Positions 5,475 through 30,890 of a stretch of 62,651 nt of DNA are shown here, in pieces. The translations under genes were made by a program, and so were the position numbers. Each line of letters starts with the position of its first letter. Within the stretch, counting starts at the first letter, position 1. The notes under the pieces were generated by a model. The model was not told the origin of the DNA, did no database searches, and saw only the letters and a program-made list of their open reading frames with translations. Origin of the DNA: a virus (lineage: Duplodnaviria > Caudoviricetes); the IMG/VR virus record IMGVR_UViG_3300010396_000012, positions 1 through 62,651 of that record; one strand, given 5' to 3'.

Positions 5475-6449
5475 TCAGGCGTTGTAGTCCAAACGACCTT
5501 CTTTCTCTGCCTTTTCGTAGGCGTCGCGAATCCGCTGGTACTCGGAATCCGAAATCTGTTTGTTGATCCACTGCTTGTGCGCTTCCTTACGCTTGCTGAA
5601 TGGCAGCATTTCCGGTTCGTCGTTACCTTCCGGTACTCGGCTACCACCACCTGAAAGTCCGCCTTCATAGCCAGTCGAGGATGGCCGTTCGCCGATCCCA
5701 TACTTTTTGGCGAAGTCTTTGAAGACACGAACTACCACTTCGACCTTGCGGTTCTGCAGTCCGCCACGAATCACGTCCGCGTACAGATAGCCAGTGTTCG
5801 GGTCTTCCGATTCTGCGAATGCCACCCAGTGCTGATGGTTCACGACATCATCGAAATTGATCTTGTCGCCGGCCAACTTCTGGCGCACCTGATCGTTGAA
5901 GTCGCGTCCTTCGATCTGCTCCGTATGCTTCACGGTCTTGGTGACGGCCTGCTCAATCTCAGTGAGCTTACCCTTCACCCCCTTTAGTCCGGCGAGAGCC
6001 TTCGGCAGCACCTTGTTCAGCGTGTCGATGACGACCTTTTCCACAAACTCACGGCTTTCGCCGTAGTCTCGCTGCTCGTCTTCGGTAAACTGCACTTGGC
6101 TCGGCTGCCAGTCCTCGTCGTTCGCGGGCGGCGCGTCGTTGCCTTGACCCTGACCACTACCCTTAGAGGCGTTTTCAAGCGCTGTCAAGCGGGCCTCAAG
6201 CGCTTCCTTGTCCATTTCCAAGGACTCGACCCGGCCTTCCGCCGCGCGCACGCGGCCAGCCGCCGCCTGCAACTCGTTGAACTCGCCACGCGTCACGGTC
6301 ACACTTTCACCCTGCACACGGTCTTCTGCCGACGGTACGGGAGTAAGCGCCGGAGTAGGTGCTGCTGGGGCTTGTGCCGGCGGAGCATCACCTTTGTCGG
6401 CGGCGCTAAGGGCATCGAGACGAGCTTGCTGTGCGGCAGGAAGGGCCAT
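5475..6449 (-). CDS. Putative scaffolding protein
   Basis: 324 aa, acidic/coiled-coil, immediately upstream of the capsid gene, ends AEKEGRL. Confidence 0.7.
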   Translation of the reverse strand: MALPAAQQARLDALSAADKGDAPPAQAPAAPTPALTPVPSAEDRVQGESVTVTRGEFNELQAAAGRVRAAEGRVESLEMDKEALEARLTALENASKGSGQGQGNDAPPANDEDWQPSQVQFTEDEQRDYGESREFVEKVVIDTLNKVLPKALAGLKGVKGKLTEIEQAVTKTVKHTEQIEGRDFNDQVRQKLAGDKINFDDVVNHQHWVAFAESEDPNTGYLYADVIRGGLQNRKVEVVVRVFKDFAKKYGIGERPSSTGYEGGLSGGGSRVPEGNDEPEMLPFSKRKEAHKQWINKQISDSEYQRIRDAYEKAEKEGRLDYNA

Positions 6450-13415: not shown

Positions 13416-13642
13416 GCAAGTACAACGGCCACTAATCATGGGCGCAGTGGAATGTTAGCCTATGGCTGAACAATGACGAAGCGCTCTATAACGGCATGCG
13501 CAACGCCATTCGCTGGACGAAGAACCGCACGGAAGCGGCGCGGAAGATGCTCACATGGCTCAAGGAATCAGGCCAGACGGAAACGCCGGACGGCGCAGCG
13601 TATACGCTGACAAGCATCAAGCATGCCATGGTAGGCATGTGA
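13412..13642 (+). pseudogene. Conserved small phage early gene (YNG...WNVSLW.NNDE.LY...TPDG family) with an in-frame TAA at codon 8
   Basis: Hand translation MSKYNGH*SWAQWNVSLWLNNDEALY...ETPDGAAYTL...; ATGA coupling to the upstream gene; stop at 13433-13435. Confidence 0.75.
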
Positions 13643-13650
13643 TACCGCAA

Positions 13651-13916
13651 GCCGTGCCGCGAAGCGTATGCCTAGCCGTACGGATCAGAACAATTAGTAA
13701 ACTGCGCAGGTTAGGCAAGGTGCGTCGCAAGGCGTGCCTTGCCGTGCCGTTTGTTAAGGTTTTGTATAGACGATTAACACTAAACTAATGAGTCGTGCCG
13801 CAAGGCAGATTAATCAGTACCGCGCGCAACAAGGATAAAACTAATTAACTCGCCCTTCGCACAAACGGGAAACAAGGCAACGCGCGATTATCTGAACCAT
13901 TATGCAAACCGTGCCG
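13651..13916 (+). repeat. Dispersed CGTGCCG repeats (4 copies)
   Basis: Copies starting near 13651, 13741, 13794 and 13909 in a non-coding region. Confidence 0.55.
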
Positions 13917-19529: not shown

Positions 19530-19655
19530 AATCCTTTGGAGCAAACACTACTATAGGTTCCGCAGATGATGCAGGCTAGAATGTACTGCGGAGTTTGTTA
19601 ATTTGTGCGGGGCTATCACGCAACAAAAATCACAGGTTCAAACGCAACAAGGTAG

Positions 19656-19683
19656 TTGACAACTAGCAAAACCGTAGTACAAT
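19656..19683 (+). promoter_or_regulatory. sigma70-type promoter
   Basis: TTGACA-16 nt-TACAAT. Confidence 0.65.
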
Positions 19684-19724
19684 GAGCGTGCCAATCCGGC
19701 AAGCACCCAACAAGCGAGGGATAT

Positions 19725-23827: not shown

Positions 23828-24070
23828 ATGCCACGCAAAGAACCACGCGACTACGAAGCCGAGTACGATCAGTACCATGGCAAGCAAGCGCAGATTGACA
23901 ACCGGAATCAGCGGAACAAGGCTGTTCGCAAGTTGAACCGCGAAGGCAAAGCCAAGTACGATGGCAAGGAAGTCGATCATAAACGTGGAGCCAAGAAAGG
24001 CGCAAAGCTTTCCAACGCAGATGCTAACTTGCGTGTGGTCAAGAAAGTCACTAACCGGAGAAAGGGATGA
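23828..24070 (+). CDS. Small HNH-like protein
   Basis: RDY..EY..YH...RN.RN and DG.EVDH...NLR.....NR motifs. Confidence 0.7.
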   Translation: MPRKEPRDYEAEYDQYHGKQAQIDNRNQRNKAVRKLNREGKAKYDGKEVDHKRGAKKGAKLSNADANLRVVKKVTNRRKG

Positions 24071-24252
24071 CGACGAAAATTAAAGTGACGATGGAAGAAT
24101 ACGCAGGGATGCCGGTGACTGTTTGTGTCAAGACGCCAGACCGTGATCTGCAGATTGTGGACACGCTGCTGGAAAAAGGCGATAGCGCTACCGTCTACGT
24201 TCACCAGAACCAAGATGTAGTGGTCGGCGAAATCAAGACGACGGCAGCGTAG
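24067..24252 (+). CDS. Hypothetical protein
   Basis: 61 aa, ATGA coupling. Confidence 0.65.
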   Translation: MTTKIKVTMEEYAGMPVTVCVKTPDRDLQIVDTLLEKGDSATVYVHQNQDVVVGEIKTTAA

Positions 24253-24254
24253 TC

Positions 24255-24533
24255 GTGACAGGAAACTTTACGGACAACATACTCGACATGGAAGTGCGCG
24301 TGCAGCTACAGCGCGCTCAGCAAGGTTTTGCCGTCCAAGTAGCAAAAGTTAACCCCGATGCCTCACTGACTATCCTTGGCACCCTGACAGGACAGGGCGA
24401 TATGCAGTACATCGGGGAGTGGTTGAAGCAGGGACTTACGCTGCAAGTGACTCGGATCACCGTCACAGGTATACCGATCCCGCCATGGTTTGACGAAGGA
24501 TACGGTATTCCCGATTCACTTGATGGAGCGTAA
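24255..24533 (+). CDS. Hypothetical protein
   Basis: 92 aa, tightly packed. Confidence 0.6.
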   Translation: MTGNFTDNILDMEVRVQLQRAQQGFAVQVAKVNPDASLTILGTLTGQGDMQYIGEWLKQGLTLQVTRITVTGIPIPPWFDEGYGIPDSLDGA

Positions 24534-24535
24534 TC

Positions 24536-24757
24536 GTGAAAGCAGGGCTGATGGACACGCTCACCAGAATAAAGGCTGAATTGCCGTACATGGCAGTCTT
24601 TTGGTTGGCAGAGTGTGTGTTCGTAGCAATGCTTTATCGCGCAGGGGTGGTAGGGTGGTGGCCGGTTCCGCTATTGTTGATAGGCAACTTGCTTGTCCTC
24701 ATGTTGTGCGATCTGGTTGACCAATTACTAGAGCGAGTTATAAATGGCAAGGAGTGA
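24536..24757 (+). CDS. Small two-TM membrane protein
   Basis: Two hydrophobic segments; GGAG RBS. Confidence 0.65.
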   Translation: MKAGLMDTLTRIKAELPYMAVFWLAECVFVAMLYRAGVVGWWPVPLLLIGNLLVLMLCDLVDQLLERVINGKE

Positions 24758-24954
24758 CCATGTGCTACGCAGTTTTGAAAGTCAGTTACAGGAACAGTGC
24801 TTCCCCAACTTACCTTGAAGTGGAACAAAAAGATCAGCTAGATTCAAAGCTGGACGAGGTAAAGAATCGCGCGGAAGTACAGAGCGTCGCGGTGTTCAAT
24901 CACGACGTAACCCACCGGCTTGTACCGACATGGCAGGTGGCGACCCATGAATAA
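24754..24954 (+). CDS. Hypothetical protein
   Basis: 66 aa, coupled. Confidence 0.6.
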   Translation: MTMCYAVLKVSYRNSASPTYLEVEQKDQLDSKLDEVKNRAEVQSVAVFNHDVTHRLVPTWQVATHE

Positions 24955-25285
24955 CTTTTTCCAACTCATTATTAATCTGACGATCAAGTCGCCGGATGGA
25001 AAAGACGTGCACGTTTCCACGTCACGCACGATCCCGTTTCAACCCGTCGAAGGGCTTACCCTGTTGCTTCCCTTGTGCGAGGGAGAGGACGAGAACTACG
25101 ACGCAGAGTACCCCATCGAACTGGGCGCACCGTCCTACAGCTATCTCGAATCAGGTTTCGTAGAGTCGCAGGAAGACGACACTGTGTACGACATGGTTCG
25201 CGACGGGGATGCCACACTATCCGAGGCCATGGACGCCGTGGTCAAAGGCTACGAAGCCTATGGTTTCAAGAAGGTACGTTCATGA
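24947..25285 (+). CDS. Acidic hypothetical protein
   Basis: Start refined to MNNFFQ. Confidence 0.65.
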   Translation: MNNFFQLIINLTIKSPDGKDVHVSTSRTIPFQPVEGLTLLLPLCEGEDENYDAEYPIELGAPSYSYLESGFVESQEDDTVYDMVRDGDATLSEAMDAVVKGYEAYGFKKVRS

Positions 25286-25578
25286 GTGAAGAAAAGATAC
25301 TCCGTAATCCGAAGCATACCACACTGCTAGAGTTCCCAAGTGGGTCGGGCAGATTAAGTGTCGTAGAGAACTTCGGGGAGTGGAACGAGTTACAGACACC
25401 GCAAATGTCGTTCATTGTAGACTGTGGGCCGGGGCGCAGTTTACAGGTAGACAGTATCCCGGCGCAAGCATTGGCCCAAGTCGCGTTTCGACTACTCAAG
25501 GTAGTTAAAGATCATGTCTCCGAAGTTGGTTTGGAGCGCATGTTTGAGCAGGAACTTGGGCCGTTCATTACTGACTGA
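25282..25578 (+). CDS. Hypothetical protein
   Basis: Start refined to MSEEKI (ATGA overlap). Confidence 0.65.
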   Translation: MSEEKILRNPKHTTLLEFPSGSGRLSVVENFGEWNELQTPQMSFIVDCGPGRSLQVDSIPAQALAQVAFRLLKVVKDHVSEVGLERMFEQELGPFITD

Positions 25579-25587
25579 GGAAACACA

Positions 25588-26133
25588 ATGTCCAAGACAA
25601 AGAGCAAGGAAGTACCTGTTCAGGTAGTACCGACTCCGGAAGACATCGCCGAGAGCGCACGTATCGTACAGGATGCGGAAATGCAGATTCCGGGCGGCTT
25701 CCATAGCGTCATAGAACTGCATCGCGGGGAGCGTTCCACGACTCCGATCCTGAGTTACGTGGAGCATATCAAAGCCGTGCATTGGGGACTGAGCTACATG
25801 CAGAACCTATGCTACCGCCTGTCGTACAACAAGGGCTGGCACAACGGCTACGACGGGGTTGACCCGTACGTCTTCGCTACCAAAATCGCACTGATCCATA
25901 GCGAGCTTAGCGAAGCATTGGAAGGTCATCGCAAAGACTTGCAGGACGACCATCTGCCCCACCGCAAGGCTGTCGAGGTCGAACTGGCGGACGCCATCAT
26001 CCGTATCTTCGATCTGGCGGGTGCGGCCAAGCTGGACGTGGCAAGCGCCGTAATCGAGAAGCTGGTATATAATCAGCACCGTGCCGACCATGAGGAAGCT
26101 GCACGCAATGGTGTAAATGGAAAGCGCTATTAA
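25588..26133 (+). CDS. MazG-like all-alpha NTP pyrophosphohydrolase
   Basis: LIHSELSEALE...VELADAIIRIFD...EKL.YN motifs. Confidence 0.85.
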   Translation: MSKTKSKEVPVQVVPTPEDIAESARIVQDAEMQIPGGFHSVIELHRGERSTTPILSYVEHIKAVHWGLSYMQNLCYRLSYNKGWHNGYDGVDPYVFATKIALIHSELSEALEGHRKDLQDDHLPHRKAVEVELADAIIRIFDLAGAAKLDVASAVIEKLVYNQHRADHEEAARNGVNGKRY

Positions 26134-26272
26134 GGAGCGCGTGTCAGGAGCACAAGGAAACCGTGTGTGAACGGAACCGACGTTGGGCCGTTGAGCCTTC
26201 GGGCGAGCCTCCAACGTGCTGACAACGGATGTTGGTAACATCAATCAACCCGAGAGGCACGGTAGCCTTTCG
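26117..26272 (+). ncRNA. Candidate CsrA/RsmA-binding RNA (CsrB/RsmZ-like sponge or regulated leader)
   Basis: Six GGA motifs in ~115 nt, five of them ANGGA, several in hairpin loops; cUUCGg tetraloop; 3' hairpin. Confidence 0.5.
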
Positions 26273-26290
26273 TCATTTGAGGAGCGTAGT

Positions 26291-26536
26291 ATGTTCGGAC
26301 TAACCAGAAACCTTACCTTGCGCGTGTTCAAGGACGCCGATGGTGCCAGCGAGGCAGGGTTCAGCAAGGAAGACAAGTACAAGGACGCAAAGCCATTGGA
26401 GATTAATACGGCTGTCGTGGTCAAGAACGGCACCGTAGGCGGTAACTCCACCGTCGATCTGGTCATGGAAGATAAGGACGGAAACAAATACGTGGCAATG
26501 ATTACCGGCACGTTGGTTAAATTGCTACCGCTTTAA
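26291..26536 (+). CDS. Conserved phage hypothetical protein
   Basis: Start refined to MFGLTR after GAGGAG; GT.GG.STVDL...D..G.KYV motif. Confidence 0.75.
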   Translation: MFGLTRNLTLRVFKDADGASEAGFSKEDKYKDAKPLEINTAVVVKNGTVGGNSTVDLVMEDKDGNKYVAMITGTLVKLLPL

Positions 26537-26558
26537 CAACTCACAGTCAAGGTGGACT

Positions 26559-26741
26559 ATGAAACCGAGAATCTACAAAGTTGCTGGCTGGTGGTATTGT
26601 GTACAAATACTTGCCGACCGTGGACTGGCAGGCGTTAGATGTATAGGCCGTGGTCGTAGCGTGAAAACAGCATGGAAGGACTTTGGCCGCAAGTACAACT
26701 GGTACAAGAGGGGTTGTCCGGGGTTGAGGATACGCCCATGA
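26559..26741 (+). CDS. Small basic hypothetical protein
   Basis: MKPRI.K..G.W.C pattern; GGTGGA RBS. Confidence 0.65.
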   Translation: MKPRIYKVAGWWYCVQILADRGLAGVRCIGRGRSVKTAWKDFGRKYNWYKRGCPGLRIRP

Positions 26742-26914
26742 AGAACTGGTCTACCAAAGAATTGAATTGGCTGCTGGACAATAACCATAGGTTCAGCACC
26801 AAAGACCTAGCTCGGAAGTTTAATACTACTGAGCAGGATGTAGCGAAAGCTATTAAACGTGCACTAGGAAGGACGGTAGACGGTAAAGGGAAAAGACGGC
26901 GGTATGGGCATTGA
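26738..26914 (+). CDS. Small HTH protein
   Basis: WS.KE..WL...STKDLARKFNTT...V pattern. Confidence 0.6.
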   Translation: MKNWSTKELNWLLDNNHRFSTKDLARKFNTTEQDVAKAIKRALGRTVDGKGKRRRYGH

Positions 26915-26942
26915 AACACAAGTCACCCAAAGGAGCATGACG

Positions 26943-27125
26943 ATGGCAAAGGGCAAGAAAGGTATGGGCTTCAAAGCAGCGGCAGGTAGTGTCGCCAAGC
27001 GTGAAGGTATGTCGATGAAGTCGGCAAGTGCCGTGATTGCGGCAGGCGCACGCAACGCCAGCGCCGGCGCGAAACGAGCCAACCCGAACCTGAAAAAGGT
27101 CAAGGGTTCACGTAAGCGCGGTTAA
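26943..27125 (+). CDS. Small Lys/Ala-rich basic protein (possibly nucleic-acid binding)
   Basis: GFKA.A..VAK.EG.S...A.A.IA...R.AS..AK.ANP.LKKVKG; AGGAG RBS. Confidence 0.75.
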   Translation: MAKGKKGMGFKAAAGSVAKREGMSMKSASAVIAAGARNASAGAKRANPNLKKVKGSRKRG

Positions 27126-27139
27126 GTTTTACCCAAGTC

Positions 27140-27176
27140 ATGCTCGGCGGCGCACTGCCGCCTAGCATTTATTTTT
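27140..27176 (+). terminator. Intrinsic terminator
   Basis: ATGCT-C-GGCGGC/GCCGCC-T-AGCAT stem followed by TTATTTTT. Confidence 0.7.
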
Positions 27177-27198
27177 CCTGTTACTTGAGGATCACCGC

Positions 27199-27672
27199 TT
27201 GTCTGGCTACATCAAACTCAAGTCGCATTTCAAGACGACGCTTTCGCGTGACGTAAGCGATATGATTCTAGGCGCGCATATCGCTACAGGCGCTACGCGT
27301 ATGGTGTACGCGCATGCGACGCAAAGTGACGCCGTGGTGAAGCTGGAAAACATAGCGAATAGTTTCTGCAACATCTACGAAGAACAGGTTTGGTACCACG
27401 TCAAGGACACGGAGTTTGCGCAGTGGTTCGCGCCGGTCTTGCGTATCAGTCCGAACGGTACCGTGCTGGTCATGCGTCGCACCATGCCTGTGTCCATCAA
27501 TGATCTGCCAAAGCATGTGCCTGCGTTCTTTACCGACCTGAAAGCGGAAAACTTCGGCCGTATGGATGGGCGCATTGTGTGCCATGACTACGGGTTCCAT
27601 CGGTTTATCGAGCGCGGCATGACGAAGAAAATGCGGCTGGCGAACTGGGAAGCGAAAGAGACGAAAGCCTAA
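27199..27672 (+). CDS. Minimal protein-kinase-like enzyme
   Basis: G..I.TG.TR.VY loop, VVK lysine, N..E helix, DLKAEN catalytic loop and DYG. Confidence 0.75.
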   Translation: MSGYIKLKSHFKTTLSRDVSDMILGAHIATGATRMVYAHATQSDAVVKLENIANSFCNIYEEQVWYHVKDTEFAQWFAPVLRISPNGTVLVMRRTMPVSINDLPKHVPAFFTDLKAENFGRMDGRIVCHDYGFHRFIERGMTKKMRLANWEAKETKA

Positions 27673-28238
27673 TGCCTATTTACACAACAGGGAACGTCAT
27701 CAAACGCGGGGAAATGTGGTGCGATGACGCCGACGAGATTACACAGAATGCACTTGAGTCAGCCGGGTACGACTGGAACAGTGAATGGCCGATCCAATTT
27801 GGATTGGATACCTGCGGACTAGGCAATGCGTTGCTGGCGTTAGGCGCACCGTTACCACGGTACAAAGTCAAGGCCCGCGAAGTAGAAATTAAGTATCTGA
27901 AATACCTATACGACGTGGCCGTGCAGATCGCGTGTCGTCATGGCTTCACGATAACCGATACCAAGGCGTGGCTGGATCGAGAGGATCGTCAAGTAAGTTG
28001 TCTGGCCTATGCCAAGATGTGGATCGAAATCAAGCAGTGTGCCGAGAATACAGGCATGGAGCAATTAGCTTCTGCCATGACGCTGATCTACAGCGCCGAC
28101 AAGAGTTACATGCTACGCAATGTCATGGCAACACGGTATCTCGCCACCGGCCAACGATTACTCGAAGGCGAAGCAGCGTCACACGAAACCATCAGTAATC
28201 TTAAAGATTACCTACGGAAGGAACTGGATAATGTCTGA
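27672..28238 (+). CDS. Hypothetical protein
   Basis: 188 aa, TAATG coupling. Confidence 0.7.
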   Translation: MPIYTTGNVIKRGEMWCDDADEITQNALESAGYDWNSEWPIQFGLDTCGLGNALLALGAPLPRYKVKAREVEIKYLKYLYDVAVQIACRHGFTITDTKAWLDREDRQVSCLAYAKMWIEIKQCAENTGMEQLASAMTLIYSADKSYMLRNVMATRYLATGQRLLEGEAASHETISNLKDYLRKELDNV

Positions 28239-28650
28239 ACACAAACACGTCAACACACGTTACTGGAAACGCACTGAGCTGGACAGTACCGTCGTGTACT
28301 TTTTCACCGAGTCGAATGCAGCGCATGCCCGCGCCGAGGACGATAGCCGCGCCGAGGAAATCGAGCAGGCCGAGTACACGGCCAACGTGCCCGAGGAAGC
28401 GCGCCAGAAGCCCTACGATGCGACGAACGGCAAAGCCGTCACCGGGGTAGCGGCCCAAGGGGCTGCCGCCGTGATCGAGTCCTACAAGGCCCGCTGCGCG
28501 GCGCAGATGATCGGTGCCCACCAACAGATCATCCAACTGCTACTGAACGCCGACATCACTCATGCCGAGCGTGTGTTCATCCTTGAAATGGTCAAGGCGG
28601 AACTGGTGCAGTCGATGTTGTCCCCCGTCCCCCAACAGCCAGTGCACTGA
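28231..28650 (+). CDS. Hypothetical protein
   Basis: Start refined to MSEHKH. Confidence 0.7.
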   Translation: MSEHKHVNTRYWKRTELDSTVVYFFTESNAAHARAEDDSRAEEIEQAEYTANVPEEARQKPYDATNGKAVTGVAAQGAAAVIESYKARCAAQMIGAHQQIIQLLLNADITHAERVFILEMVKAELVQSMLSPVPQQPVH

Positions 28651-28657
28651 GGTAGTC

Positions 28658-28918
28658 ATGTCACCCAACCGTGCTTTCCGAGAGAGTCGCGAGCGCTTTT
28701 TGCATGTCAGCGCTCCCCTGATCCCCAACCCCGCAAGGCAGATTGAGATTGCGTTGAAGGGTCACTCCATTCTTCCCGAGATAGTTGTCGGCCACCGTGT
28801 CACGTTCTGCAAAAAGATCAATCAGCGTAAACGCCAGCGTGCAGAAATGTACGGCACGTCTTACCAACGTCGTCTGGCGCAGCCAACTGTCCGCATGGTA
28901 GGAGCAATGACCCCATGA
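28658..28918 (+). CDS. Basic hypothetical protein
   Basis: Start refined to MSPNRA after GAGG. Confidence 0.6.
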   Translation: MSPNRAFRESRERFLHVSAPLIPNPARQIEIALKGHSILPEIVVGHRVTFCKKINQRKRQRAEMYGTSYQRRLAQPTVRMVGAMTP

Positions 28919-29457
28919 GTAAAGACCTTTCCATCGACATCGAGACGCTAGGCGTCAACTCCAACGCGCCGGTACTGTCCATCGGTTACTGCTGGTTCAA
29001 CTACGACAAGCCGGAGATTGAGCCGACCGGCAAAGGTCACACCGCGTTCGACATCAACGAGCAGACCCGCAAGTACGGTCGTGTGATCCACGCTGATACC
29101 GTGAAGTGGTGGTTCAACCAGTCGGACAGTGCCCGCAGCGCCGTGTTCCCAGCCAACCAGAGCAGCTTCCCCGGTTTCATTGAACGACTGACCGCCATGC
29201 TGAATGCGGCGGATCAAGTGTGGGCGAAAGGGCCGGACTTCGACTGCGTGATCTTGAAGGACTTGGTAGAAGCATGCGGTCACGACTACAAGTGGCCGTT
29301 CTGGAAGCACCGTTGCGTGCGTACGATGACCGAGTTGTTTCCGAGTATCATTACCGATGTACGTATGTCGGGTAATGCCCACAATGCGCTGGACGACGCG
29401 GTGCACCAAGCCAACCAGATTCGCGCCATCGCACAAGCACTGGGTCGAGGCGTGTAA
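28915..29457 (+). CDS. DEDDh 3'-5' exonuclease (RNase AS/exonuclease VIII-like)
   Basis: DIET, G.DFD and HNALDDA motifs. Confidence 0.88.
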   Translation: MSKDLSIDIETLGVNSNAPVLSIGYCWFNYDKPEIEPTGKGHTAFDINEQTRKYGRVIHADTVKWWFNQSDSARSAVFPANQSSFPGFIERLTAMLNAADQVWAKGPDFDCVILKDLVEACGHDYKWPFWKHRCVRTMTELFPSIITDVRMSGNAHNALDDAVHQANQIRAIAQALGRGV

Positions 29458-29465
29458 TTACCGTT

Positions 29466-29501
29466 CAGTCAAGGACTGACTGGACTCACCGTAGTAAGGA
29501 G
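29466..29501 (+). promoter_or_regulatory. Putative CsrA-binding leader of csrA (autoregulation)
   Basis: CAGTCA-AGGAC-TGACTG hairpin with GGA in the loop, plus a TGGA and the AAGGAG Shine-Dalgarno. Confidence 0.55.
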
Positions 29502-29507
29502 AGATAT

Positions 29508-29693
29508 ATGCTTGTAATGACGCACCGACAGGGCGATAAAGTATACATCGGCAACGATGGCGAAATCGTCGTCGAGGTACTGGAAGTGCATGGTGGTAAG
29601 GTGAAGCTTGGGTTCCACGCACCCAAGGACATCCCCATTGTTCGAGACAAGGTTAAGGAGCGCGACCATGGCAATACGCCTGAAAGCAATTGA
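29508..29693 (+). CDS. csrA: Carbon storage regulator CsrA/RsmA-like RNA-binding protein
   Basis: MLVMTHRQGDKVYIG...V.VLEV.G.KVKLGF.AP.DI.I.R aligns by eye with CsrA, including the RNA-binding Arg. Confidence 0.88.
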   Translation: MLVMTHRQGDKVYIGNDGEIVVEVLEVHGGKVKLGFHAPKDIPIVRDKVKERDHGNTPESN

Positions 29694-30354
29694 GGAATGC
29701 CGGCTGGAATTAATTGCAGCTACGCAAGGTGTTCCACCGCTGCCGTGCCATATGGACAACATGCCTGTGCATGCGGCCCGTGTCAGTTTCGGCAAAGAGG
29801 AAGACGTACGCAGTGAGTCCGAGGATGCGCGACTCATGAACTATCTTGCCCAACACGATCATCTGACACCGTTCGAGTATCAGCATGCGACATTCATGAT
29901 TGAGTGTCCACTGTTTATTCGCAGCCAGATTCATCGCCACCGTACATTCAGCTTCAATGAAATCAGCCGGCGTTACACGTCCGATGAAATCGAGTTCTGG
30001 AAACCGACGACATGGCGCGGTCAAGCGGAGAAAAACAAGCAGGGTAGTGAAGGTGAAATACGGCCGCTGATAGCAGAGTCGCTATTCAAAAGCCACGAAG
30101 CCCACTGCCAGATAGCAGTGAATGCGTACGAGACAGCTTTGAACGCTGGCGTAGCGCGTGAGCAAGCCCGAGCGATCCTTCCCCAGTCGCTACTGACCCG
30201 GTTCTATATGGGCGGTAACCTGCGTAACTGGGTGCACTTCCTCAAGCTACGTCTGGACGAGCATGCCCAATACGAAGTGCGTGTGATCGCACAGCGTATC
30301 CACAAGCAGCTTGCTATTCTATGGCCCAACTCACTAGAGGCGTTGATGAAATGA
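29668..30354 (+). CDS. thyX: FAD-dependent thymidylate synthase
   Basis: AARVS, H.TPFE, RHRTFSFNEISRRY signature, REQAR.ILP and AQYEVR. Confidence 0.95.
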   Translation: MAIRLKAIEECRLELIAATQGVPPLPCHMDNMPVHAARVSFGKEEDVRSESEDARLMNYLAQHDHLTPFEYQHATFMIECPLFIRSQIHRHRTFSFNEISRRYTSDEIEFWKPTTWRGQAEKNKQGSEGEIRPLIAESLFKSHEAHCQIAVNAYETALNAGVAREQARAILPQSLLTRFYMGGNLRNWVHFLKLRLDEHAQYEVRVIAQRIHKQLAILWPNSLEALMK

Positions 30355-30890
30355 GCGATGCAGTCGAGTCTCCGCAGCATTACACCCAAGGCTACATCGA
30401 GTCGATCTACGCCATTAAACAGATACTCGGCAATGAAGGTTTCAAAGCCTTCTGCATGGGTAACTTCCTCAAGTACAAGCAGCGCGCCGATTACAAGAAT
30501 GGCGAGGAAGACTTGAAGAAAGCTGCCATCTATCTGGACTGGGCCGTCAATGGGTTGCCCGCACCCGTGAACAACATGGTGCCTAAGAAAGACCGTGCGC
30601 CCGTAGAGCCGAAGCTGAGCGGAAGTATCAGCGCCGTCCTACAGCACGAACTTGATATTCTTGCGCCCAACGTGTGGTGCGTGGATGCCGTACAGGTCTT
30701 CCCACTTAGCGATGGCTGGCGGCGCATATCAGCCGTAATTAGCTACGCACAAGCCAATAATAACCCCGACAAGTTCGAGCTTCGGCCGGTACTGCAGCGT
30801 GTCCATGAAGGTGCACGCTACGCTGAAATAGTGTTTGACTTGATCGAGGAAGCCAAGAAGATTCACCGCGATGGGCCGTGGAAAGCGTGA
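30351..30890 (+). CDS. DUF3310 (T7 gp1.7/SaV-like) domain protein with C-terminal extension
   Basis: V.SP.HY..G.IE.I...GN.LKY..R...KNG.EDL.KA..YL. Confidence 0.8.
   Translation: MSDAVESPQHYTQGYIESIYAIKQILGNEGFKAFCMGNFLKYKQRADYKNGEEDLKKAAIYLDWAVNGLPAPVNNMVPKKDRAPVEPKLSGSISAVLQHELDILAPNVWCVDAVQVFPLSDGWRRISAVISYAQANNNPDKFELRPVLQRVHEGARYAEIVFDLIEEAKKIHRDGPWKA

What the first reader, a model, noticed from the sequence alone, without database searches (positions are those of the whole stretch)
26117..26272. Candidate phage-encoded CsrA/RsmA sponge RNA: a possible self-contained phage Csr circuit
Seen: the ~157-nt gap after mazG, unusually long for this packed arm, has ATGGA (26117, inside the last mazG codons), AAGGA (26132), CAGGA (26145), AAGGA (26154), ACGGA (26171) and ACGGA (26225). 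Several can sit in short hairpin loops: GCGC-TATTAAGGA-GCGC, GTG-TCAGGAG-CAC and CAAC-GGAT-GTTG. There is also an ACGTTGG/CCAACGT stem capped by a cUUCGg tetraloop and a 3' hairpin (26251-26272). About 0.5 ANGGA would be expected by chance in 115 nt; five occur. Established: CsrB/C and RsmY/Z sequester CsrA/RsmA through repeated loop-exposed ANGGA motifs. Inference: this phage encodes both a CsrA protein (29508) and a GGA decoy RNA. It could titrate host CsrA while substituting its own, or time its own translation. I am not aware of such a protein-plus-sponge pair being described in a lytic phage.
Basis: partly seen in the sequence, partly recalled or inferred. Interest (0 to 1): 0.85.

Follow-up and report, generated by a model that had tools for sequence, protein, structure and literature searches.

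The report
Conserved folded phage RNA, not sponge
The gap after mazG holds a real, conserved, folded non-coding RNA shared by related soil phages that all carry a csrA gene, but only two of its GGA motifs are conserved, so it may dock CsrA without looking like a many-site sponge.

Summary
By count alone they are weak evidence. Five ANGGA in 115 nt is the window maximum, but the p81 coding sequence next door ties it. The fold is no better than shuffles (z -0.32).

Comparison changed the picture. Window 26150-26272 is a conserved non-coding RNA element with homologues in three related phages: L087, G006 and G007. It is the best-conserved DNA between the window and L087, at 82.8% against 66-72% for genes. 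Two helices carry compensatory changes. A 29-nt core with two A(N)GGA motifs 17 nt apart is nearly invariant.

It travels with the tRNA/p81 module, not with mazG. csrA is present in 8 of 8 close relatives.

The sponge reading fails on four counts. Only 2-3 GGA are conserved. The homologues have background GGA density. No promoter, terminator or GacA box was found. There is no Rfam match.

Best reading: a cis-encoded structured leader or spacer RNA whose core is a protein-docking site, perhaps for CsrA. Earlier scan notes describe similar tRNA-linked GGA-hairpin RNAs in other phages; I did not check them.

The parts
25588..26133 (+). mazG-type pyrophosphatase gene. It is an exchangeable cassette, not part of the element.
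   Evidence: PHROG pyrophosphatase families, best E 1.9e-48. In soil runs X5 and X8 the contigs leave the window at 25563 and rejoin at 26129 (loose ends and pieces). In G006 and G007 mazG lies elsewhere in the genome.
26134..26290 (+). 157-nt spacer between mazG and p81. This is the stretch the finding is about.
   Evidence: It has 6 GGA and 3 ANGGA.
26150..26178 (+). Nearly invariant 29-nt core with two A(N)GGA motifs (AAGGA at 26154, ACGGA at 26171) 17 nt apart. It folds only weakly.
   Evidence: Mismatches to the window core: L087 1, G006 1, G007 2. It is single-copy in each genome. Local folds are -6 to -7 kcal/mol, z about 0, with two near-equal alternatives.
26180..26217 (+). Helix H2. 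An 8-bp outer stem (26180-26187 with 26210-26217) encloses GCC-UUCG-GGC (26195-26204).
   Evidence: RNAalifold of the window with L087 gives one compensatory change (U-A to G-C), one G-C to G-U change, and no broken pair. G006 and G007 have a different long hairpin at the same place, with an A-U to G-C compensatory change.
26219..26235 (+). Helix H3, CUGACA / UGUUGG, with ACGGA (26225-26229) as the loop. It competes with the hairpin GAUGUU-GGU-AACAUC (26228-26242).
   Evidence: It is in the consensus fold but has no varying pair. The single-sequence MFE prefers the competing hairpin. CTGACA followed 17 nt later by an A/T-rich hexamer is also weakly promoter-like; that is my reading by eye, and the scan did not call it.
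26253..26270 (+). Helix H4. A 6-bp stem (26253-26258 with 26265-26270) with loop ACGGUA.
   Evidence: Two compensatory changes (A-U to C-G, G-C to C-G) and one G-U to G-C change against L087. No T-run follows, and the scan did not call it a terminator.
26279..26536 (+). Shine-Dalgarno GAGGAG (26279-26284) and the p81 gene (ATG 26291..26536), function unknown.
   Evidence: ORF and start are. Homologues begin at the same Met. No Pfam or PHROG family matches. Homologues follow the element in L087 and G007.
29508..29693 (+). Phage csrA gene (61 aa), the proposed partner.
   Evidence: Pfam CsrA E 3.9e-16. PHROG 'CsrA-like regulator' E 1.4e-14. Aligns to solved CsrA/RsmE structures. Present in 8 of 8 relatives whose DNA polymerase is 60% or more identical.

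Best explanation
Window 26150-26272 is one member of an uncatalogued family of structured non-coding RNA elements in a lineage of about 62-64-kb soil phages.

Anatomy. It is read on the + strand, probably as part of the early polycistronic transcript. It sits at the head of the module that holds the phage tRNA genes and/or the small gene p81. It has a nearly invariant, weakly folded 29-nt core with two A(N)GGA motifs 17 nt apart. Helices whose pairing is kept by compensatory changes follow the core.

Most likely mechanism (inferred, not shown). It acts in cis as a leader or spacer RNA. The helices set or protect RNA ends where the upstream mRNA is separated from the tRNA/p81 part. The invariant core is a docking site for a protein. 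The best candidate is a CsrA dimer, either the phage's own or the host's, bridging the two GGA motifs.

It is not a CsrB/RsmY/RsmZ-type many-site sponge, and its position after mazG is incidental.
For: Homologues:
- L087: nhmmer E 1e-20, 82.8% identity over 116 nt.
- G006: exact-pattern match.
- G007: core with 2 mismatches.
- A covariance model built from the window and L087 recovers G006 (30.4 bits) and G007 (29.3 bits).

Constraint. The element is the most conserved nucleotide stretch between the window and L087 in 5.5 kb, at 82.8% against 66-72% for coding matches.

Structure:
- Window with L087: 29 consensus pairs, 3 with compensatory double changes, 2 with one-sided compatible changes, none broken. 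Slid controls give 0-1 compensatory pairs.
- G006 with G007: 63 pairs, 2 compensatory, 10 one-sided, none broken.
- G-U pairs place the RNA on the + strand.

Context:
- L087: the element is followed at once by a tRNA-like gene, then p81, then 7 tRNAs.
- G006: it is followed by tRNA-Thr and tRNA-Leu.
- G007: it is followed by a tRNA-like gene, p81 and a tRNA.
- Near-identical relatives keep 26129-26277 with 1 difference in 149 nt, although mazG is replaced.

Core:
- It has 0-2 mismatches across four phages and is single-copy per genome.
- Local folding is no better than shuffles, which suits a sequence-read site.
- Passages read in PMC4066749 say CsrA/RsmA proteins mainly bind A(N)GGA in single-stranded RNA.
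- From recall: one dimer can bridge two sites tens of nt apart.

csrA is a core gene of the lineage, present in 8 of 8 close relatives.
Against: - There are no RNA data, so no ends, processing or abundance are known.
- Covariation rests on two pairs of sequences. The shuffle control has little power with two rows (60 of 500 shuffles reach the observed value). RNAalifold picks compatible pairs by construction.
- In both near-equal local folds of the core, the GG of the first GGA is paired.
- In the possible G001 counterpart the aligned AAGGA reads AAGGU while the CCGU/ACGG stem is kept. That favours a conserved helix over a GGA site.
- Two complete csrA-bearing relatives (G001, G009) lack the core, so the lineage's CsrA does not depend on it.
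- H3 overlaps a weak promoter-like CTGACA-17 nt-A/T-rich hexamer. G006 has TAAACA-16-GATAAT downstream of its core. Part of the conservation could therefore be at the DNA level.
- Both arms next to the swapped mazG cassette are nearly identical in the close relatives. That near-identity may reflect recent recombination rather than selection.
Confidence: 0.55

Rival explanations
1. The RNA is a trans-acting decoy (sponge) that accumulates as a discrete small RNA and titrates host and/or phage CsrA. Together with the phage csrA it would form a self-contained Csr circuit.
For: - Two nearly invariant A(N)GGA motifs lie 17 nt apart.
- A third GGA sits in the loop of consensus helix H3 in the window and L087.
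- csrA is present in all 8 close relatives.
- In 3 of 4 homologues a tRNA follows the element. By recalled tRNA biology, RNase P cleavage could then release the upstream RNA as a free fragment.
- The window itself has 6 GGA in 157 nt, in the top 2.5% of windows.
Against: - Only 2-3 GGA are conserved. The homologues have 4-5 GGA in about 290 nt scanned, which is background.
- Predicted exposed GGA in the gap sums to 1.3, which 5.7% of windows match or exceed. None sits in an MFE hairpin loop when the gap is folded alone.
- No promoter, intrinsic terminator or GacA box was found.
- No Rfam match.
- G001 and G009 have csrA but no core.
- A two- or three-site RNA would need very high abundance to titrate a regulator.
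Confidence: 0.1
2. The element is a classic CsrA-repressed leader of p81. CsrA would bind the upstream GGA sites together with the GGA in the Shine-Dalgarno sequence and block translation of p81.
For: The window meets the criteria quoted from PMC4066749 (passages read):
- AGGA lies within the Shine-Dalgarno sequence (26280).
- There are at least 3 sites.
- Neighbouring sites are less than 60 nt apart: 26154/26171, 26171/26225 and 26225/26280.
Against: - The geometry is not conserved. In L087 and G007 a 93-96-nt tRNA-like gene lies between the element and the p81 start.
- G006 has the element but no p81.
- More distant p81 homologues (L025, L026) lack this leader.
- A GGA in a Shine-Dalgarno sequence is trivial.
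Confidence: 0.12
3. The element is a CsrA-independent RNA processing or stability module, for example an RNase III- or RNase E-type intercistronic hairpin set with a 5'-end hairpin. Alternatively it is a stand-alone stable small RNA of the tRNA region, like T4 RNAC/RNAD. Under either form the GGA motifs are incidental.
For: - The helices that covary (H2, H4) contain no GGA.
- The element sits next to tRNA genes in 3 of 4 homologues.
- The G001 variant keeps the H1 stem but not AAGGA.
- T4 makes two small RNAs from its tRNA region whose roles are unknown (PMC3014915, passage read).
Against: - It does not explain why a weakly folded 29-nt stretch is nearly invariant while neighbouring helices drift.
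- I found no conserved antisense target in the phage genomes: 10-mer matches were at the chance level, about 3 expected.
Confidence: 0.2
4. The gap has no RNA-level function. It would be a chance GGA cluster in a spacer, or a DNA-level site such as a promoter/operator or a recombination arm, or a small ORF.
For: - The ANGGA count is matched in nearby coding DNA.
- Fold z is -0.32.
- One frame (TRKPCVNGT...) is open in three homologues, and the one variable core base is a third codon position in it.
- Near-identity next to a swapped cassette suits recombination arms.
Against: - Compensatory changes and G-U pairs point to RNA.
- The small ORF has a start codon only in L087. Ten of 11 changed codons between the window and L087 are non-synonymous, by my count on the alignment with the frames.
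- The CCGT/ACGG repeat has a 6-nt spacer in four phages and an 11-nt spacer in G001, which is unlike an operator for a dimer.
Confidence: 0.03

Closest known systems
CsrB/CsrC (Enterobacteria) and RsmX/RsmY/RsmZ (Pseudomonas): small RNAs that sequester CsrA/RsmA
   Same: Non-coding RNA with A(N)GGA motifs, in a genome that also encodes a CsrA-family protein. One GGA can sit in a short hairpin loop (H3).
   Different: - Those RNAs present many GGA sites. PMC7366521 (passages read) gives 18 for CsrB and 11 for CsrC.
- From recall, they also have their own GacA/UvrY-dependent promoter and a terminator.
- Here only 2-3 GGA are conserved, no such signals were found, and no Rfam model matches.
Dual-site CsrA/RsmE target leaders (for example glgC and hcnA) and the high-affinity hairpin ligands
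   Same: Two A(N)GGA motifs lie 17 nt apart. The first is flanked by ACA...UGU, which can form a hairpin around it. That resemblance to the SELEX ligand is recalled, not tested.
   Different: The conserved pair is 105-125 nt from the p81 Shine-Dalgarno sequence in the window. In three homologues it precedes tRNA genes, not a ribosome-binding site.
T4 RNAC and RNAD, small RNAs made from the phage tRNA region (PMC3014915, passage read)
   Same: A conserved non-coding RNA placed in or beside a phage tRNA gene cluster, with function unknown.
   Different: No sequence relation was tested or found. The window phage itself has no tRNA gene. It is not known whether this RNA accumulates.
Phage- and plasmid-borne csrA genes (PMC7366521, passages read)
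   Same: The window's csrA is one more case. That survey found csrA in 30 of 2517 phage genomes.
   Different: In the passages I read, that paper names no phage-encoded RNA partner. A conserved dual-GGA RNA in the same phage lineage would be new. The paper's supplementary tables were not seen.

Membership tests
Csr/Rsm sponge sRNAs (CsrB, CsrC, RsmX, RsmY, RsmZ) | Many A(N)GGA/GGA motifs, most of them exposed in hairpin loops or single strands, and kept in relatives | tested here: not met
   - The window gap has 6 GGA, but the predicted unpaired sum is 1.3 and none is in an MFE hairpin loop.
- Only the GGA at 26134, and partly the one at 26147, are unpaired in the ensemble.
- Homologues have 4-5 GGA in about 290 nt scanned.
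- Of six listed motifs, 2 are kept in all four phages, one of them shifted by one base in G007.
Csr/Rsm sponge sRNAs (CsrB, CsrC, RsmX, RsmY, RsmZ) | Own transcription unit: a promoter with an upstream GacA/UvrY box, and a Rho-independent terminator | tested here: not met
   - No + strand promoter-like or terminator-like site lies in 26134-26290. None flanks the homologues in the right places.
- The recalled box TGTAAG-N6-CTTACA gives 17 matches at up to 3 mismatches against 19 expected by chance, and none is near the gap.
- These are simple consensus scans and the host is unknown.
Csr/Rsm sponge sRNAs (CsrB, CsrC, RsmX, RsmY, RsmZ) | Match to the curated covariance models | tested here: not met
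   - Rfam 15 scan of window 25000-27500 at E up to 10 gave only a chance CRISPR-DR57 match elsewhere.
- L087 5200-6900 gave only tRNAs and weak matches to unrelated families (Plastid-ycf2, YrlA), all outside the element (5649-5793).
- L179 3400-4300 gave nothing in the element.
Csr/Rsm sponge sRNAs (CsrB, CsrC, RsmX, RsmY, RsmZ) | Binds and titrates CsrA/RsmA | not testable with these tools
   Needs a gel shift, ITC or a reporter assay.
CsrA-repressed mRNA leaders (criteria of PMC4066749) | A(N)GGA at the Shine-Dalgarno sequence, at least 3 sites, and site pairs under 60 nt apart | tested here: met
   Window: AGGA at 26280 in GAGGAG, with sites at 26154, 26171 and 26225. Spacings are 17, 54 and 55 nt. 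The criteria are quoted from passages read.
CsrA-repressed mRNA leaders (criteria of PMC4066749) | The same site-to-Shine-Dalgarno geometry kept in orthologous leaders | tested here: not met
   A tRNA-like gene separates the element from p81 in L087 and G007. G006 has no p81.
Small RNAs of phage tRNA regions (T4 RNAC/RNAD type) | Encoded inside or directly beside the phage tRNA gene cluster | tested here: inconclusive
   True for L087, G006 and G007, that is 3 of 4 homologues. The window has 0 tRNA genes. Close relatives carry a 337-letter insert after p81 whose content I could not read.
Small RNAs of phage tRNA regions (T4 RNAC/RNAD type) | Accumulates as a discrete stable RNA | not testable with these tools
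   No RNA data were available (see Tried and rejected).
CsrA protein family (for the partner gene 29508..29693) | Pfam PF02599 above the cut-off, aligning over the RNA-binding N-terminal strands and the GxxAPK...R segment | tested here: met
   59.2 bits against a cut-off of 27. Aligned to RsmE 2jpp and CsrA 1y00 over residues 1-54, with ML..T, APK and the following Arg kept. That these residues contact RNA is recalled.

The most novel reading that the evidence does not exclude
This phage lineage may run its own small Csr module. The lineage-wide phage CsrA would dock on the invariant dual-GGA core of a folded RNA made at the head of the tRNA/p81 module. Where tRNAs follow, tRNA processing would release that RNA. 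The RNA would then act as a phage-borne CsrA buffer or timer, holding phage or host CsrA early and freeing it later, or the reverse. A second, denser GGA cluster at 13515-13590, which includes a CCGC-ACGGAA-GCGG hairpin, could be a further site of the same circuit.
Probability: 0.13. Interest if true: 0.8.

Novelty: new member of a known kind. Interest (0 to 1): 0.5.

Why it matters
Phage csrA genes have been counted (30 of 2517 genomes in PMC7366521), but I found no RNA partner described for any of them:
- Full-text searches gave no paper on a phage-encoded CsrA-binding RNA.
- A 2025 review of phage small RNAs does not contain the word CsrA.

Here csrA is a core gene of a phage lineage. The same lineage keeps a folded RNA whose only invariant part carries two CsrA-type motifs at a spacing that, as I recall, suits bridging by one CsrA dimer. 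That gives a concrete and cheap test: one protein, one 150-nt RNA and two point changes. It would address what phage CsrA proteins bind.

Even if CsrA plays no part, this is an uncatalogued structured RNA family tied to phage tRNA modules. That class has been unexplained since T4 RNAC/RNAD.

Tried and rejected
Approaches that gave nothing:
- Cultured-phage relatives. A blastn 'distant' search of the mazG-to-p81 region against 50,697 phage records matched only the mazG core in unrelated phages. The DNA polymerase is at most about 31% identical to cultured phages.
- mazG-based searches of IMG/VR and of metagenome contigs. The 22 and 80 loci kept were generic mazG genes. Only L087 proved useful, and it was found later by nhmmer.
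- p81-based search. It gave 3 loci. One is a 99% identical contig that starts 6 nt before the p81 ATG, so it lacks the gap.
- Exact-pattern scans with no hit: viral contigs; genome contigs.
As a result the contigs of the closest full-length mazG relatives (P0002 at 87%, P0003-P0007) could not be read.
- Sequencing runs. No RNA holder was listed, so nothing can be said about expression. Read laying showed only 40 of 342 differing places. My statement that the arms next to the mazG swap are nearly identical therefore rests on piece counts: record 11 has 1 difference in 149 nt, and no differences are listed between 25262 and 25563.

Readings rejected:
- tRNA or tmRNA in the window: none.
- Small ORF: see the rival explanations.
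- Antisense target of the core within the phage genomes: only chance-level 10-mers.
- sigma-54 promoter, boxA/boxB nut site and attP core: considered by eye and dropped for lack of a match to the recalled consensus. None was tested with a tool.
- L053 match to the relaxed hairpin pattern: it lies inside a 557-aa ORF, so it is chance.
- G001 as a fifth member: it matches only a relaxed pattern at the syntenic place and shares a few anchors. I keep it as 'possible'.
- The second region, 13440-13700, has no homologue among the DNA held.

Supplementary tables of PMC7366521, which list the csrA-positive phages, were not seen.
Full report
What the window is. The window is a complete IMG/VR virus record of 62,651 bp with direct terminal repeats and 54% G+C. 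Its nearest cultured relatives share only about 30% DNA polymerase identity. Public runs that hold it are soil metagenomes plus one groundwater metagenome with a small share.

The observation. mazG ends at 26133 and the next gene (p81, 81 aa, no family) starts at ATG 26291 behind GAGGAG, so the gap is 157 nt. All six listed motifs are in place. Five ANGGA in 115 nt, against 0.43 expected, is the window maximum (10 of 62,537 positions).

That count is weak evidence on its own, for four reasons. First, the same maximum occurs at 26364-26366 inside the p81 coding sequence, and a relative genome of similar size also reaches 5. Second, two of the five motifs are in mazG codons or its stop codon. 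Third, the gap proper, with 6 GGA and 3 ANGGA, is matched or exceeded by about 3% of windows of its length. Fourth, the region folds no better than dinucleotide shuffles (z -0.32).

Across 3,126 windows of 157 nt, 2.5% match or exceed the gap in GGA number and 5.7% in predicted exposed GGA. None of its GGA sits in an MFE hairpin loop when the gap is folded alone. No Rfam family matches at E up to 10. No promoter-like or terminator-like site lies on the + strand of the gap, and no GacA-type box is nearby.

Close relatives. Contigs of four soil runs were laid on 24000-30400. In X5 and X8 a relative about 95-97% identical leaves the window at 25563 and rejoins at 26129. In other words, mazG is replaced. 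The sequence that replaces it begins like the 100-aa ORF that L087 carries at the same place. From 26129 the gap is kept: record 11 covers 26129-26277 with one difference, while the 3' part of p81 shows 14 differences in 160 nt. The left arm also shows no listed difference for about 300 nt. This near-identity may therefore be a recombination footprint, and I do not count it as selection. It does show that the element belongs with p81, not with mazG.

Distant homologues. nhmmer of the gap against all DNA held found L087, a metagenome contig syntenic with the window (E 1e-20, 82.8% over 116 nt, window 26150-26265). This is the best-conserved nucleotide stretch between the two phages in 5.5 kb; coding matches run at 66-72%.

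A pattern taken from the block shared with L087 found G006, a complete 62,870-bp phage. An alignment-based DNA polymerase search then found G007, 63,050 bp with terminal repeats. All four share the 29-nt core at 26150-26178, with 0, 1, 1 and 2 mismatches to the window. It occurs once per genome, and no copy with up to 8 mismatches exists in G001, G009, G008 or G002. A covariance model built from the window and L087 recovers G006 and G007 (30.4 and 29.3 bits).

Structure. RNAalifold on the window with L087 gives four helices with 29 pairs and none broken:
- H1 and H3 do not vary.

Slid controls give 0-1 compensatory pairs against 3 observed. The shuffle control has little power with two rows. 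G006 with G007 gives 63 pairs, 2 compensatory, 10 one-sided and none broken. These include an A-U to G-C change in the long hairpin that follows the core. G-U pairs place the RNA on the + strand.

The core itself folds weakly (-6 to -7 kcal/mol, z about 0) into two near-equal alternatives. Its invariance is therefore at the level of sequence, not helix stability.

Context:
- L087: the element ends about 10 nt before a 93-96-nt tRNA-like gene, followed by p81 and then seven tRNAs.
- G006: it heads a 256-nt non-coding stretch before tRNA-Thr and tRNA-Leu.
- G007: it precedes a tRNA-like gene, p81 and a tRNA.
- The window has no tRNA gene.

The upstream gene differs in all four phages. The element is thus a module of its own at the head of the tRNA/p81 block.

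GGA conservation. Of the six listed motifs:
- 26154 is kept in all four phages.
- 26171 is kept in three and shifted by one base in G007.
- 26225 is kept as CCGGA in L087 only.
- 26132 is kept in L087 only.
- 26117 and 26145 are lost everywhere.

The homologues have 4-5 GGA in about 290 nt scanned, which is the background rate.

csrA. The 61-aa protein is a clear CsrA: Pfam 59.2 bits, a PHROG CsrA-like regulator, and alignment to RsmE and to E. coli CsrA. A CsrA gene is present in 8 of 8 relatives with DNA polymerase 60% or more identical, and in two more distant relatives. It was not found in two others. Among the five complete csrA-bearing genomes, three have the core (window, G006, G007). 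G009 has none. G001 has only a doubtful counterpart: a GG..CCGT-N11-ACGG..CC hairpin at the syntenic place before tRNA-Thr, in which AAGGA reads AAGGU.

Phage csrA genes are already in print. PMC7366521 reports them in 30 of 2517 phage genomes (passages read), and several phage records annotate one.

Alternatives checked. A small ORF is open in one frame in three homologues. However, only L087 has a start codon, and 10 of 11 changed codons between the window and L087 are non-synonymous (with the alignment). I found no conserved antisense target. A weak promoter-like CTGACA-17 nt-A/T hexamer overlaps H3, and G006 has TAAACA-16-GATAAT downstream of its core. A DNA-level share in the conservation therefore cannot be excluded.

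Reading. Shown: a conserved, folded, + strand non-coding element with a nearly invariant dual-A(N)GGA core, tied to the tRNA/p81 module of a csrA-bearing phage lineage, and no match to any Rfam family. Inferred: it acts in cis on the early transcript, and its core is a protein-docking site with CsrA as the best candidate (my odds about 1 in 3). Not supported: a CsrB/RsmZ-type sponge (about 1 in 10).

Earlier notes of this scan describe similar tRNA-linked RNAs with CsrA-type hairpins in other phages. I could not test them, and they do not count as support.

Noticed in passing
window 13515-13649: A denser GGA cluster than the one flagged: 6 GGA in 76 nt (13515-13590), including a CCGC-ACGGAA-GCGG hairpin. 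It is the top + strand window for predicted exposed GGA. The covariance model of the element gives a weak 19-bit match at 13551-13649, with CAAGGAA and ACGGAA 15 nt apart and a terminal hairpin with loop AUGGUA. The 77-aa ORF called there looks unconvincing. No homologue was found among the relatives held.
   Followed up: partly
window 25564-26128: mazG is an exchangeable cassette. Relatives about 95-97% identical in soil runs carry unlike sequence here. It begins like the 100-aa ORF (PHROG 34710, unknown function) that L087 has between mazG and the element. In G006 and G007 mazG lies elsewhere, downstream of the DNA polymerase gene.
   Followed up: partly
window 26540-26558: Contigs of runs X5 and X8 carry 337 extra letters between p81 and the next gene. 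L087 has seven tRNA genes and G007 one tRNA gene at this place, so the insert may hold tRNAs. I could not read it.
   Followed up: no
L087 5796-5891 and L179 3863-3956: An odd 93-96-nt tRNA-like gene sits right after the element. ARAGORN gives a four-base anticodon in L087 and tRNA-Ala(tgc) of 96 nt in G007. Rfam tRNA scores 40.6 bits in L087; in G007 only tRNA-Sec at 23 bits, below its cut-off.
   Followed up: no
window 26364-26480: The p81 coding sequence itself holds 5 ANGGA in 115 nt, from Lys/Glu/Asp/Gly codons. This ties the flagged cluster.
   Followed up: yes
window 19530-19724: A 195-nt gap contains a near-consensus promoter, TTGACA-17 nt-TACAAT followed by GAGCG (read by eye). G001 has TATAAT followed by GAGCG before its tRNA-Thr. 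Host-type promoters in this lineage therefore look canonical, unlike anything in the flagged gap.
   Followed up: no
window 29508-30354: The end of csrA overlaps the start of the thyX-like ORF listed from 29608. The csrA-thyX-DNA polymerase order is kept in L027, L028 and L029.
   Followed up: no
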